From the human T2T-CHM13v2.0 reference genome, Homo sapiens, in assembly GCF_009914755.1 (NCBI RefSeq), contig NC_060927.1: 64,000 bases of DNA, one strand, 5' to 3'. The translations under genes were made by a program, and so were the position numbers. The notes under the pieces were generated by a model that saw only the letters and a list, made by a program, of their open reading frames with translations, did no database searches and was not told where the DNA came from. Positions 2,884 to 7,044 of this stretch are shown piece by piece. Numbering within the stretch: position 1 is the first letter of the stretch; every line of letters starts with the position of its first letter.

Positions 2884-3523
2884 GCGCACCCTCTGGTCAC
2901 CCAAAATTAATATCCATTCCACACTCAAAAGACATTCACCTCATCCCAGCATCCCCTAAAGTTTCAACCCATTACAGCATCCACTCAAAGTTCAAAATCT
3001 TACCTAAATATTGTTAGCTAAAAAGCTTCAAATCTCATCATCTAAATCATTTAAATCAGGTATGGGTGAGGCACCAAGTGTGATCCACCCTGGATCAAAA
3101 TTTCTCTCTACCTGTGGGCTTATGTAACTAGAGAACAAGTTATCTGCTCCCTAAATACAACAGTGGAACAGTCCTAGGATACCAGTTGCAGACATTCTCT
3201 TTCAAAAAGGAAAAAAAATGAAAAGATGGAATGAGTCACTGGTCCCAAGAAATTTTGAAATCCAACCAGAAAAACTCTAGTCTGTTTTAAAACCTGGGAA
3301 TAATCCTCTTTGATTTGATGTTCTGCCCTGCAGGCCCTCAGCTCTGCCCTCTGAGTTATTCTTCCTTTTTCTGAGGGTAGCATATGTTTGTAATTGACCA
3401 GTTTTTTTTTTTTTGTGACTTTTTAAATCGTTTATTCAAAAATACTACTGCATATCAGTACAAGTTGGAAAGAGGCTTAAAAAATTCATACATTTCTGCC
3501 TTTGAAGCATTCACAATTTAGAA

Positions 3524-3713
3524 CAGTATTGTCCAGTAGAATTTTCTGCAATTAACAGAAATGTTCTTTGTACTGTCTAATATAAGTAGCTGTTGGGCAC
3601 TAAGAATATAGTTAGTGTGAGTGAATAATACAATTTTACATTTAATTTTATTTTAATTAATTAAAATAACAGTAGCCACACATGGCTATTAGCTATTGTA
3701 GTTGAAAAGATGC
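3524..3713. mobile_element. MER3-like hAT-Charlie DNA transposon inside the transduced segment
   Basis: 'cagtattgtccagtagaattttctgcaat...gtagccacacatggcta' resembles MER3/MER33 termini and core. Confidence 0.65.
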
Positions 3714-4019
3714 ACATGGAAATAAATAATTACAATGCACTAGTGCTGGGGAAGCAGAGAGAATGGAGATATTAACTTTTTTCATAAAAAACCTCCAAGA
3801 GGAGATACATGTTGGGCAAAGTCTTACGTATAGGTAGAAATTCATTCTAGAAGGAAGAGCATTGCAGGCAGAGGACACTGCAGTGGCAAAGGCATAGCGT
3901 TATGATGGGCTTGGCATTTTAAGGGAGGTGCAGTGTAAAGAGATAGAAAAAAAAACCCACTTGAAGAAAAGAAAAAAAAAACAGGCAAAGCTCATTTCCC
4001 ATCAAGAAAGATGGGCAGA

Positions 4020-4318
4020 GGCCGGGCGCGGTGGCTCATGCCTGTAATCCCAGCACTTTGGGAGGCTGAGACGGGCGGATCACGAGGTCAGCAGATCGAG
4101 ACCATCCTGGTTAACACGGTGAAACCCCGTCTCTACTAAAAATACAAAAAATTAGTTGGGTGTGATGGCGGGCGCCTGTAGTCCCAGCTACTCGGGAGGC
4201 TGAGGCAGGAGAATGGTGTGAACCAGGGAGGCGGAGCTTGCAGTGAGCTGAGATAGCGCCACTGCACTCCAGCCTGGGGGACAGAGCGAGACCCCGTCTC
4301 AAAAAAAAAAAAAAAAAA
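4020..4318 (+). mobile_element. AluY, full length, inside the transduced segment
   Basis: GGCCGGGCGCGG start; AluY diagnostics ('cacgaggtca', 'ggcggagcttgcagtgagc'); A18 tail; TSD gatgggcaga at 4010-4019 and 4320-4329. Confidence 0.95.
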
Positions 4319-4488
4319 TGATGGGCAGAATAAAGTCCTTAGAATGGCCTATTATTTTAAAAACCAAAGAAGAAAGATGGGCAAAATACATAAAGATTTG
4401 GTGAACAAATCCAGGAATATTAAGATGTGTAGAAAGGAGTCATCTGGGTACATCTCTAAGGGCATAGTGTCAGACTTCAGATAGTAAC

Positions 4489-6048
4489 TTTCTTTTTTTT
4501 TTGTACTTTTTTTTTTTTTTTTTTTTTATTGATCATTCTTGGGTGTTTCTTGCAGAGGGGGATTTGGCAGGGTCATAGGACAATAGTGGAGGGAAGGTCA
4601 GCAGATAAACAAGTGAACAAAGGTCTCTGGTTTTCCTAGGTAGAGGACCCTGCGGCCTTCCGCAGTGTTTGTGTCCCTGGGTACTTGAGATTAGGGAGTG
4701 GTGATGACTCTTAACGAGCATGCTGCCTTCAAGCATCTGTTTAACAAAGCACATCTTGCACCGCCCTTAATCCATTTAACCCTGAGTGGACACAGCACAT
4801 GTTTCAGAGAGCACAGGGTTGGGGATAAGGTCATAGATTAACAGGATCCCAAGGCAGAAGAAATTTTCTTAGTACAGAACAAAATGAAAAGTCTCCCATG
4901 TCTACTTCTTTCTACGCAGACACAGCAACCATCCGATTTCTCAATCTTTTCCCCACCTTTCCCCCTTTTCTATTCCACAAAACCGCCATTGTCATCATGG
5001 CCTGTTCTCAATGAGCTGTTGGGTACACCTCCCAGATGGGGTGGTGGCCGGGCAGAGGGGCGCCTCACTTCCCAGTAGGGGCGGCCGGGCAGAGGCGCCC
5101 CCCACCTCCCAGACGGGCTGGCTGGCCGGGCGGGGGGCTGACCCCCCACCTCCCTCCCGGACGGGGCGGCTGGCTGGGCGCGGGGCTGACCCCCACCTCC
5201 CTCCCGGACGGGGTGGCTGCTGGGCAGAGACGCTCCTCACTTCCCAGACGGGGCGGCTGCCGGGCGGAGGGTCTCCTCACTTCTCAGACGGGGTGGCCAG
5301 GCAGAGACGCTCTTCACCTCCCAGACGGGGCGGCGGGGCAGAGGCGCTCCCCACATCTCAGACGATGGGCGGCCGGGCAGAGACGCTCCTCACTTCCTAG
5401 ATGGGATGGCGGCCGGGCAGAGATGCTCCTCACTTTCCAGACTGGGCAGCCAGGCAGAGGGGCTCCTCATATCCCAGATGATGGGCGGCCAGGCAGAGAC
5501 GCTCCTCACTTCCCAGACGGGGTGGCGGCCGGGCAGAGGCTGTAATCTCGGCACTTTGGGAGGCCAAGGCAGGCGGCTGGGAGGTGGAGGTTGTAGCGAG
5601 CCGAGATCATGCCACTGCACTCCAGCCTGGGCACCATTGAGCACTGAGTGAACGAGACTCCGTCTGCAATCCCGGCACCTCGGGAGGCCGAGGCTGGCTG
5701 ATCACTCGCGGTTAGGAGCTGGAGACCAGCCCGGCCAACACAGCGAAACCCCGTCTCCACTAAAAAAATACGAAAACCAGTCAGGCGTGGCGGCGTGCGC
5801 CTGCAATCGCAGGCACTCGGCAGGCTGAGGCAGGAGAATCAGGCAGGGAGGTTGCAGTGAGCCGAGATGGCAGCAGTACAGTCCAGCTTCGGCTCGGCAT
5901 CAGAGGGAGACCGTGGAAAGAGAGGGAGTGGAAAGAGAGGGAGAGGGAGACCGTGGGGAGATGGGCGACGGGAGATGGGAGACGGGAGAGGGAGAGGGAG
6001 ACCATGGGTAGACGGGAGACGGGAGACGGGAGACGGGAGAGGGAGAGG
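4489..6048 (-). mobile_element. SVA retrotransposon (SVA_D-like, possibly C), full-length body
   Basis: Read on the + strand: poly(T), SINE-R (about 4525-5020), GC-rich VNTR (about 5020-5540), Alu-like domain (about 5540-5900), and a (CCCTCT)/(CCCGTCT) head (about 5900-6048). Confidence 0.97.
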
Positions 6049-7044
6049 GTAATTGACCAGTTTTATTGGCCTGTTTCCCACCTGTAGAATTTTGGGCATG
6101 TAAAAACTTTCATTTATTTCATCCTCTCTCAGTCCTTTCAGTCCAAACTGGCAGTATTTTTGCTGATGTAACATTCTCAAAAGCCTTGTGGCTCTCTTGT
6201 GTGAATTGTCATGTTACAGCAGTTCTCCCTAGTAGACCAAGTGTTCCTCCACAGATCATTTCTGGTTAATCTCAACTCTATTTCTGGCTCCTAATGAAAT
6301 GGCTGAGGGGGTCCATGATTCACATTCTGAATTTCATCAAAGATTCCTCTTATAGTTACTTTTTGTTTGTTTGGGGGTGTGAGAAAAGGATTGTCTAGCC
6401 TCACCATTGGCTTTTCCTCCAGAGCATACTTTCCTGATAGTGAATCTCATAATTGTCTTGCAAACTGTACAGGCTAAGAATTTCCCCAATAGTCAAGTCC
6501 TAGTTTCTTTTTCTAAACAGTTCTTCCCTCAATTTTTCTCTTTTCTCTCACACTTCACTATAGGAAACAAGAAGAAACTAGGTCATACTTTCAATACATT
6601 TTTGGAAATCCCCTCAACTAAATATCAAAATTCATTACTTAACAAGTTCTGCTTCTCACATAATGATAGGGTACAATTCAGCTAAGCTTTGTCACTGTGA
6701 AATGAGAATCTCCTTCTTTCCAATTTCCAACAAGATGTTCTTCATTTCCTTCTGAGCCCTCCAGCAGCACCTTTAACATTCATATTTCTACCAACATTCC
6801 ATTTGTGATGATTTAGGTATTCTCTAAGATGATACAGGTTTTCTCTACCATGTTCCTCATTTCCTTCTGAACCCTTGGTGGCAGAGTCCTTAGTACCCAA
6901 ATTTCTACCTACAGTTTCTTCAAGGAAACCTAGCTGTTTTCTATCACGGGCCTCAAAATTCTTTCATCTTATGCCCATTGCTCAATTCCAAAGCCTCTTC
7001 TACATTTTAATGCGTTTGTTACAACAGCACCCCACTTCCAGGTA

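What the first reader, a model, noticed from the sequence alone, without database searches (positions are those of the whole stretch)
3390..6064. SVA-mediated 3' transduction of about 1.1 kb carrying an AluY, a MER3 and L2 sequence
Seen: the 16-mer gtaattgaccagtttt occurs at 3390-3405 and again at 6049-6064, directly abutting the SVA hexamer head. The left copy adjoins a second poly(T) (3402-3414) about 1.1 kb beyond the SVA's own poly(T), with a minus-strand AATAAA at 3431-3436. The MLT1 internal sequence resumes across the repeat, and the right junction reads TTTT/AT, similar to an L1 endonuclease nick site. Established: SVAs read through their weak poly(A) signal and mobilise 3' flanks by L1-mediated TPRT (for example the AMAC gene duplications). 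Inference: 3415-4488 is foreign to this locus, was copied from the flank of a source SVA elsewhere, and tags that source and any sibling insertions. A simple repeat annotation would show these as unrelated neighbouring repeats.
Basis: partly seen in the sequence, partly recalled or inferred. Interest (0 to 1): 0.8.

Follow-up and report, generated by a model that had tools for sequence, protein, structure and literature searches.

The report
SVA insertion carrying chromosome 11 flank
An SVA retrotransposon on chromosome 3 carried along about 1.1 kb copied from chromosome 11 when it inserted, an ordinary and well-known kind of event whose only twist is that no SVA now sits at the chromosome 11 source.

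Summary
The 16-mer occurs exactly twice in the window, at 3390-3405 and 6049-6064. It brackets one 2.64-kb insert on the minus strand: a full-length SVA (4528-6048), its own tail (4493-4527), 1078 bp of foreign DNA (3415-4492) and a terminal 9-nt poly(A) (3406-3414).

The foreign DNA has one other copy in this genome, at chr11:20,712,237-20,713,317. It differs at 17 of 1077 compared bases, includes the Alu, and runs on into unrelated sequence at both ends with no poly(A). A minus-strand AATAAA lies 16 nt before the tail.

Both breakpoints are L1-endonuclease-like: TTTT/AT on chr3 and TTTC/AA on chr11.

No SVA lies within chr11:20,706,000-20,725,999 in this assembly, and no sibling insertion exists.

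A published table lists this element as hs_SVA_D1, shared with chimpanzee and absent in gorilla.

Verdict: a textbook SVA 3' transduction from a source allele that has been lost or is not in this assembly. Low interest.

The parts
3390..3405 (.). Left target-site duplication (16 bp; 15-16 bp allowing for the ambiguous first G)
   Evidence: Exact copy of 6049-6064 and the only two copies in the window. Homologous bases occur once in paralogous copies of the flanking repeat.
3406..3414 (-). Terminal poly(A) tail of the whole insert (9 T on the + strand; the T run 3402-3414 is 13 long and its first 4 T are assigned to the TSD)
   Evidence: chr11 has no A/T run at the matching place, so the tail is not templated by the parental DNA.
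3415..4492 (-). Transduced segment, 1078 bp, copied from chr11:20,712,237-20,713,317
   Evidence: 99% (605 bp) and 99% (163 bp) matches, and the only other copy in the genome. Collinear alignment with 17 mismatches in 1077 compared positions plus one 3-nt length difference in the Alu tail. No ORF of 60 aa or more.
3431..3436 (-). AATAAA poly(A) signal actually used, 16 nt upstream of the cleavage site
   Evidence: It is also present in the chr11 parental sequence.
3508..3705 (.).
   Evidence: All 21 weak genomic matches (67-87% identity) fall within query 94-291.
4020..4318 (+). Alu with its own short TSD (GATGGGCAGA either side), antisense to the SVA, already present at chr11
   Evidence: Two 7SL-like monomers on the + strand at 4021-4135 and 4155-4302, below Rfam's gathering score. 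The same Alu sits at the same place in chr11.
4493..4527 (-). The SVA's own tail retained inside the insert; in SVA sense it reads A21 GTAC A10
4525..4530 (-). The SVA's own AATAAA, read through in the source transcript
4528..5030 (-). SINE-R domain of the SVA
   Evidence: 98% identity over the full 502 bp to each of the 39 other copies listed, out of 1918 candidates. Listed as hs_SVA_D1 in PMC6139936 Additional file 2.
5031..5539 (-). VNTR domain (units of about 37-48 bp)
   Evidence: the repeat finder family D1, 11 copies over 5050-5538. TRF arrays over 5105-5538.
5540..5896 (-). Alu-like domain (Alu fragments antisense to the SVA)
   Evidence: Alu-like direct repeats shared with the Alu at 4020-4318 (families D4-D7, D12). 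Weak + strand SRP match at 5576-5759.
5897..6048 (-). Degenerate CT-rich hexamer head at the SVA 5' end
   Evidence: TRF arrays over 5902-6049, periods 7, 15 and 51; sequence.
6049..6064 (.). Right target-site duplication, followed by AT (nick site TTTT/AT)

Best explanation
This is one L1-mediated (target-primed reverse transcription) insertion of a read-through SVA transcript. The steps below are marked as shown or inferred.

1. Inferred: an SVA of the D1 type sat in minus orientation at chr11:20,713,317/18 (T2T coordinates).
2. Inferred: transcription ran through the SVA's own AATAAA and A21-GTAC-A10 tail, and past three further weak signals.
3. Shown by geometry and by the untemplated tail: the transcript was cleaved and polyadenylated 1078 nt downstream, at a CA 16 nt after a canonical AATAAA.
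4. Inferred from the TTTT/AT site: L1 ORF2p nicked chr3 at TTTT/AT.
5. Shown by structure: the full RNA was reverse-transcribed and inserted, creating a 16-bp target-site duplication.

The event dates to about the time before the human-chimpanzee split. The source SVA allele at chr11 is absent from this assembly. Most likely it never reached fixation and was lost. The insert lies in a gene desert, has no ORF of 60 aa or more in the transduced part, and no function is indicated.
For: 1. One exact 16-bp TSD pair brackets the SVA plus the extra DNA.

2. The SVA is full length and canonical: hexamer head, antisense Alu-like part, VNTR, SINE-R, AATAAA and tail.

3. The extra 1078 bp has exactly one other copy in the genome, at chr11. 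That copy is collinear over its whole length, Alu included, and continues into unrelated sequence at both ends.

4. At the distal end, chr11 has no A run where the window has its tail. AATAAA lies 16 nt upstream of the end.

5. The chr11 breakpoint is TTTC/AA and the chr3 site is TTTT/AT. Both have the orientation needed for a minus-strand insertion. Only 186 of 19,994 positions (0.93%) on chr11 and 644 of 63,994 (1.0%) in the window lie within one mismatch of TTTT/AA (the consensus itself is recalled).

6. The flanks are contiguous in paralogous copies of the surrounding old repeat. In the chr1 and chr5 paralogues the two flank alignments overlap on the same bases at the 16-mer homologue, so it occurs once; in chr12 only 10 nt separate the two alignments, which leaves no room for a second copy.

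7. Divergence from chr11 is 17/1077, or 10/778 outside the Alu. This fits the published call that the element is shared with chimpanzee and absent in gorilla (PMC6139936 Additional file 2, rows seen). The identity of the element rests on the coordinate offset and on there being a single SINE-R in 204 kb.

8. Lost source elements and incomplete lineage sorting are recognised for SVA_D (passages of PMC6139936).
Against: - No SVA lies at or near the chr11 parental site in this assembly. There is none in chr11:20,706,000-20,725,999 by megablast with the whole SVA or with the window 2001-8000 query. The junction there is a clean, scarless empty site.
- No chr11 entry with a start between 20.50 and 20.739 Mb appears in the hg19 or panTro4 columns of the published SVA_D table. 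This range was my guess at the orthologous coordinates. Gorilla rows use contig names and could not be judged.
- No sibling insertion shares the transduced tag.
- The existence of the source SVA therefore rests on inference alone.
Confidence: 0.85

Rival explanations
1. Template-switch chimera. L1 reverse transcriptase began on a polyadenylated minus-strand RNA from chr11. On reaching that RNA's 5' end (or dropping off), it switched to the poly(A) end of an unrelated SVA RNA. One insertion with one TSD results, and no SVA was ever at chr11.
For: - The chr11 site carries no SVA in this assembly, and none is listed in the hg19/panTro4 coordinate range checked.
- The architecture is also what such a chimera would give: SVA, tail, second RNA, tail, one TSD.
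- Chimeric retrocopies made by L1 template switching are known. This is recalled; no paper on them was read here.
Against: - The chr11 breakpoint falls on TTTC/AA in the right orientation for an L1 endonuclease nick. Only about 0.9% of local positions fit this, and template switching gives no reason for it.
- Read-through from an adjacent element explains orientation, adjacency and the retained tail with a single RNA.
- Loss of source elements is documented for this subfamily.
Confidence: 0.1
2. Two independent insertions that happen to adjoin: a retrocopy of a chr11 transcript, and separately an SVA.
For: Each part ends in its own A-rich tail.
Against: - Neither part has its own TSD. The only duplication brackets both together.
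- Paralogues of the flanking repeat show that the sequence left of 3405 and right of 6049 was contiguous.
- The second insertion would have had to land exactly at the end of the first.
Confidence: 0.03
3. DNA-level duplication or gene conversion from chr11, with no RNA intermediate.
For: High identity to chr11 over about 1.08 kb.
Against: - The copy ends 16 nt after AATAAA in an untemplated A tail.
- It starts at the SVA tail.
- It is bracketed by a TSD at an endonuclease-type site.
Confidence: 0.02

Closest known systems
SVA 3' transduction (read-through of the SVA poly(A) signal, mobilised by L1). The example given in the Hoyt et al. preprint is SLC35G5 copied by an SVA_C (passages). The AMAC name and Xing et al. 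2006 are recalled; that paper was not held.
   Same: - SVA followed by its own tail, then flanking DNA from another chromosome, then a second tail preceded by AATAAA.
- One TSD around the whole insert and an endonuclease-type target.
- An interchromosomal source.
   Different: - The cargo here is non-coding: an old repeat, an Alu and unique DNA, with no ORF of 60 aa or more.
- There is a single offspring and no transduction family.
- The source site is empty in this assembly.
hs_SVA_D1 / pt_SVA_D1 elements shared by human and chimpanzee (Damert 2018, PMC6139936, Additional file 2)
   Same: - This element appears to be the listed one: hg19 chr3:136916721-136917217 = panTro4 chr3:140715534-140716031, gorilla 'absent'.
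- By coordinates, several of its closest relatives in this genome (98%) sit at places listed as D1 in the same table. This is a comparison by eye, not a lift-over.
   Different: - In the rows I saw, the table says nothing about a 3' transduction at this element.
- Identity with the listed element rests on the coordinate offset (3,021,808 here against 3,098,164 for another chr3q D1 element) and on there being only one SINE-R in 204 kb.
L1-mediated chimeric retrocopies formed by template switching (recalled; no paper read)
   Same: Two RNAs fused head to tail in one orientation inside one TSD with a terminal poly(A).
   Different: The chr11 breakpoint looks like an endonuclease nick site. That points to an element once inserted there rather than to an RNA 5' end.
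Orphan transductions and non-reference or lost source elements (PMC12593883 passages; PMC6139936 passages)
   Same: The source is not visible in the reference. Source elements that are polymorphic, non-reference or extinct are documented.
   Different: Here the SVA itself is present in the offspring, so this is not an orphan. Only the source copy is missing.

Membership tests
SVA 3' transduction inserted by L1 TPRT | Canonical SVA body: hexamer head, antisense Alu-like part, VNTR, SINE-R, AATAAA and A tail | tested here: met
   Sequence; VNTR and hexamer arrays; antisense 7SL-like match at 5576-5759; SINE-R 98% identical to 39 listed copies out of 1918 candidates; AATAAA at 4525-4530 on the minus strand.
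SVA 3' transduction inserted by L1 TPRT | One target-site duplication bracketing the SVA plus the extra sequence | tested here: met
   Exact 16-mer at 3390-3405 and 6049-6064; 0 of 100 shuffles gave two matches. No other bracketing repeat was found.
SVA 3' transduction inserted by L1 TPRT | Extra sequence lies directly 3' of the SVA tail, in the same orientation, and ends in a second, untemplated poly(A) preceded by a poly(A) signal | tested here: met
   Tail at 3406-3414; AATAAA (minus strand) at 3431-3436, 16 nt before the end; chr11 has no A run there.
SVA 3' transduction inserted by L1 TPRT | Extra sequence has a parental locus elsewhere that continues beyond both ends | tested here: met
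   chr11:20,712,237-20,713,317 is the only other copy. 17 mismatches in 1077 positions. Unrelated sequence on both sides.
SVA 3' transduction inserted by L1 TPRT | A source SVA stood immediately upstream of the parental sequence when the event happened | tested here: inconclusive
   None is present in this assembly within chr11:20,706,000-20,725,999. None is listed at hg19/panTro4 chr11 20.50-20.739 Mb in PMC6139936 file 2. The breakpoint TTTC/AA is endonuclease-like, which argues that an element once sat there. The ancestral state cannot be read with these tools.
SVA 3' transduction inserted by L1 TPRT | L1 endonuclease-type target site at the insertion | tested here: met
   TTTT/AT on the strand that primes a minus-strand insert. 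1.0% of window positions are within one mismatch of TTTT/AA. The consensus is recalled.
SVA 3' transduction inserted by L1 TPRT | Pre-insertion site was continuous, with one copy of the duplicated bases | tested here: met
   10 of 39 paralogous loci carry both flanks in order. Of the 3 examined, 2 show the 16-mer homologue once, and the third leaves 10 nt between the two alignments, which is too few for two copies.
SVA 3' transduction inserted by L1 TPRT | Orthologous empty site in outgroup primates | not testable with these tools
   No primate genome is held. A published table scores the element present in panTro4 and absent in gorGor5. I did not see the alignments.
Template-switch chimeric retrocopy | The 3' partner RNA starts at the junction (a transcription start, or a drop-off point) and no composite source locus exists | not testable with these tools
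   No transcription-start data are available. The lack of a composite locus in this assembly is compatible with this family but equally expected from a lost source allele.

The most novel reading that the evidence does not exclude
No SVA was ever at chr11. Instead, the insert is a chimeric retrocopy made when L1 reverse transcriptase switched from a polyadenylated chr11 antisense RNA onto the tail of an SVA RNA. That would be an SVA-cellular RNA template-switch chimera fixed in the human-chimpanzee ancestor.

A milder novel reading: the insert is the only surviving record of an extinct, once-active SVA_D1 source allele at chr11:20.71 Mb.
Probability: 0.1. Interest if true: 0.4.

Novelty: already known. 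Interest (0 to 1): 0.18.

Why it matters
It matters little beyond bookkeeping.

- The locus shows that three neighbouring repeat annotations (old repeat, Alu, SVA) are one insertion event. It also gives a clean worked example of SVA read-through.
- In that read-through, the SVA's own AATAAA and three further signals were passed before a canonical site 1078 nt downstream was used.
- The transduced tag marks a chr11 position where an SVA_D1 copy was probably active before the human-chimpanzee split and has since vanished. That is a small data point for how often source elements are lost.
- No gene lies within 100 kb according to the hub's annotation. The cargo has no ORF of 60 aa or more.

Tried and rejected
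- **Sibling insertions.** Genome searches with 3415-4019, with 4330-4492 and with the 21-nt junction pattern found none. The junction pattern gave 38 matches at up to 2 mismatches, against 23 for the reversed control. Only the window itself matched exactly.
- **SVA near the chr11 locus.** None was found in 20 kb. These were megablast-type searches. They would find an SVA but not very diverged fragments.
- **Splicing as the origin of the junction.** Rejected. On the minus strand the chr11 bases just upstream of the junction end in TT, not AG (read).
- **Coding cargo.** There is no ORF of 60 aa or more.
- **Catalogues that might list this transduction.**
  - Xing 2006, Damert 2009 and the PMC copy of Hoyt 2022 (id recalled) were not held.
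  - The Hoyt preprint's tables are closed. I saw only passages.
  - The supplements of PMC12593883 gave 0 occurrences for NELL1, 'chr11 20', 'chr3 137' and 'chr3 139'. The three coordinate phrases probably cannot match colon-joined coordinates (compare), so only the NELL1 blank carries weight.
  - I therefore cannot say whether this particular transduction is in print.
- **Repeat names and SVA subfamily.** No repeat library was available for naming MER3, L2, MLT1 or AluY. The D1 label comes from the published table.
- **A first supplement search that failed.** Searching for phrases such as 'chr3 1369' found nothing because of how coordinates are written. Searching the digits alone worked.
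Full report
**Observation.** The 16-mer GTAATTGACCAGTTTT is present exactly at 3390-3405 and 6049-6064. It occurs nowhere else in the 64-kb window, even allowing two mismatches, and none of 100 dinucleotide-preserving shuffles gave two matches. 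The right copy abuts a degenerate GGGAGA-type array at 5902-6049 (TRF). The left copy runs into a 13-T run at 3402-3414. The + strand reads TTTATT at 3431-3436, which is AATAAA on the minus strand. After the right copy come the bases AT, so the pre-insertion site read ...CAGTTTT/ATTGG.

**Anatomy.** Read on the minus strand, the insert has the following parts:
- A CT-rich hexamer head at 6048-5897.
- An Alu-like part at about 5896-5540. It shares Alu words with the true Alu further left (families D4-D7 and D12) and gives a weak 7SL match on the + strand, i.e. antisense to the element (5576-5759).
- A VNTR at about 5539-5031: 11 copies of a 37-48-nt unit over 5050-5538, and TRF arrays over 5105-5538.
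- A SINE-R at 5030-4528. It is 98% identical over all 502 bases to each of the 39 other copies listed, out of 1918 candidates.
- The element's AATAAA, the reverse complement of 4525-4530.
- A tail reading A21-GTAC-A10 at 4527-4493.

This is a full-length SVA. Then follow 1078 bases (4492-3415) that are not SVA, and a 9-nt A tail (3414-3406) that meets the left 16-mer. My earlier slice ended at 4491.

**Where the 1078 bases come from.** A whole-genome search with 3415-4019 gave the window itself, one 99% match at chr11:20,712,237-20,712,841, and 21 weak matches (67-87%) that all fall within query 94-291. A search with 4330-4492 gave only the window and chr11:20,713,155-20,713,317.
- BLAST of window 2001-8000 against chr11:20,706,000-20,715,999 gave one collinear match of 1085 columns covering 3411-4492, Alu included.
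- In a global alignment the two copies differ at 17 of 1077 compared positions: 7 of 299 in the Alu and 10 of 778 outside it. Five of the 17 lie in CpG contexts. There is also one 3-nt length difference in the Alu's A tail.
- On chr11 the sequence continues on both sides into DNA unrelated to the window.
- At the distal end chr11 reads ...GGCTATTCT|GTGAC..., with no A/T run where the window has its tail.
- At the proximal end chr11 reads ...TAACTTTC|AACTCTGG..., where the window has ...TAACTTTC followed by the SVA tail.

So chr11 is the parent and chr3 the copy. The copy was made through a polyadenylated RNA. The end of homology lies 16 nt after AATAAA, at a CA on the minus strand, which is the usual geometry of a cleavage site (established knowledge). 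The Alu at 4020-4318 has its own short duplication (GATGGGCAGA) and is present at chr11, so it predates the event.

**Target sites.** The chr3 site TTTT/AT and the chr11 breakpoint TTTC/AA are each one mismatch from TTTT/AA, on the strand required for a minus-oriented insert. The TTTT/AA consensus for L1 endonuclease is recalled. Only 644 of 63,994 window positions and 186 of 19,994 positions in the 20 kb of chr11 meet this criterion. For chr3 this is the expected mark of L1-mediated integration. For chr11 it is the main argument that an element with a poly(A) tail was once inserted exactly where the homology ends.

**Empty-site proxy.** Both flanks belong to one old interspersed repeat: 39 non-self matches each, at 67-81% identity. 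At 10 of the 39 loci matched by the left flank, a right-flank match lies next to it on the same strand and in order. I fetched three of these and aligned each flank, 16-mer included, to them.
- In the chr1 and chr5 paralogues the two alignments overlap on the same paralogue bases, so the homologue of the 16-mer occurs once.
- In the chr12 paralogue the 16-mer region aligns poorly, but only 10 nt separate the two alignments, too few for two copies.

The name MLT1 could not be tested.

**The missing source.** In this assembly it does not.
- No SVA sequence was found in chr11:20,706,000-20,725,999, either with the whole SVA as query (no hits) or with window 2001-8000 (which covered chr11:20,706,000-20,715,999 only).
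- The junction there is a clean empty site.
- No other locus carries the tag.
- The exact SVA-tail/chr11 junction occurs only in the window. The pattern search gave 38 matches at up to 2 mismatches against 23 for the reversed control, and one exact match.

**Age and identity of the element.** Additional file 2 of Damert 2018 (PMC6139936; I saw main-text passages, rows returned by searches, and part 9 of file 2) lists hs_SVA_D1 at hg19 chr3:136916721-136917217. It gives the orthologue as panTro4 chr3:140715534-140716031 and scores gorGor5 'absent'. I take this to be the present element for two reasons.
- The T2T-minus-hg19 offset would be 3,021,808. That is close to the 3,098,164 found for another chr3q D1 element, hg19 chr3:184720961, which matches chr3:187,819,125 in this genome.
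- The SINE-R query finds only one copy in chr3:139,834,001-140,038,000.

This is an inference from coordinates, not a lift-over. It fits the 1.3-1.6% divergence from chr11, which is of the order of human-chimpanzee divergence (about 1.2%, recalled).

In the same table, no chr11 entry has a start between 20.50 and 20.739 Mb in the hg19 or panTro4 columns. None of the pt_SVA_D1 rows in part 9 is near chr11:20 Mb. The coordinate range was my guess at the orthologous positions, and gorilla rows use contig names, so this is a limited negative. [quoted passage not shown]

**Mechanism.** The best reading is as follows.
1. An SVA_D1-type copy was inserted at chr11 TTTC/AA in minus orientation.
2. A transcript ran through its own AATAAA and tail, then past one further AATAAA (3647) and two ATTAAA (3641, 3652) in the chr11 flank.
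3. It was cleaved after the AATAAA at 3431-3436 and polyadenylated.
4. L1 ORF2p nicked chr3 at TTTT/AT and copied the whole RNA, and a 16-bp duplication formed.

What is shown: the structure, the parental locus, the untemplated tail, the signal geometry and the single TSD. What is inferred: the source SVA and the enzymology. I put this reading at 0.85.

**Rivals.**
- *Template-switch chimera (chr11 RNA, then SVA RNA), about 0.10.* It would give the same architecture and would explain the empty chr11 site. It gives no reason for the endonuclease-like chr11 breakpoint.
- *Two independent adjoining insertions, about 0.03.* This is contradicted by the absence of separate duplications.
- *DNA-level duplication, about 0.02.* This is contradicted by the untemplated tail and the TSD.
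- *Splicing.* Rejected because the minus-strand bases before the chr11 junction are TT, not AG.

**Comparison with what is known.** SVA 3' transduction is well established.
- The Hoyt et al. preprint reports 55 highest-confidence SVA 3' events in CHM13 and cites SLC35G5 copies made by an SVA_C (passages).
- PMC9311842 describes poly(A) signals 10-40 nt upstream of cleavage at donor loci (passages).

The present case meets every structural criterion of the offspring. The one criterion on the source side, an SVA at the parental locus, is not visible in this assembly and is scored inconclusive. I could not open the tables that would show whether this particular transduction is already listed, so I make no claim that it is unpublished. 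The element itself is in print.

**Verdict.** This is an ordinary example of a known process in a gene desert, with non-coding cargo (no ORF of 60 aa or more). It is old and, per the published table, shared with chimpanzee, so presence/absence polymorphism in humans is unlikely. The only mildly interesting point is the vanished source copy. Interest 0.18.

Noticed in passing
window 6052-6076: The target site itself contains an imperfect 13-nt tandem duplication, ATTGACCAGTTTT / ATTGGCCTGTTT (TRF period 13, 1.9 copies). Part of the TSD is therefore echoed a third time just to its right. The paralogues show the same pattern, so it is a feature of the old repeat, not of the insertion.
   Followed up: partly
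window 4153-4204 (+) and 4222-4280 (-): There are sub-threshold Rfam matches to mir-1268 (52.7 bits, gathering 83) and mir-3135 (34.9 bits, gathering 80) inside the Alu. I take them to be matches of Alu-derived miRNA families to Alu sequence, not genes.
   Followed up: no
L011 6493-6520 and 7458-7485 (chr11:20,712,492-20,712,519 and 20,713,457-20,713,484): Two direct copies of a palindromic TAGCCACAC..TGGCTATTAGC motif lie about 965 bp apart at the chr11 locus. One is inside the transduced part (window 3671-3695) and one is just beyond the inferred SVA source site. They are probably ends or copies of the same old repeat.
   Followed up: no
G000 chr11:20,801,241-20,801,544: The best paralogue of the chr3 left flank (73% identity) lies only about 88 kb from the chr11 source locus. 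I take this as coincidence between copies of a common old repeat.
   Followed up: no
window 4493-4527: The retained SVA tail is interrupted: A21 GTAC A10 in SVA sense. The GTAC may be a patterned tail or a tiny earlier transduction inherited from the source's own parent. It would serve as a fingerprint for the source copy if one is ever found.
   Followed up: no
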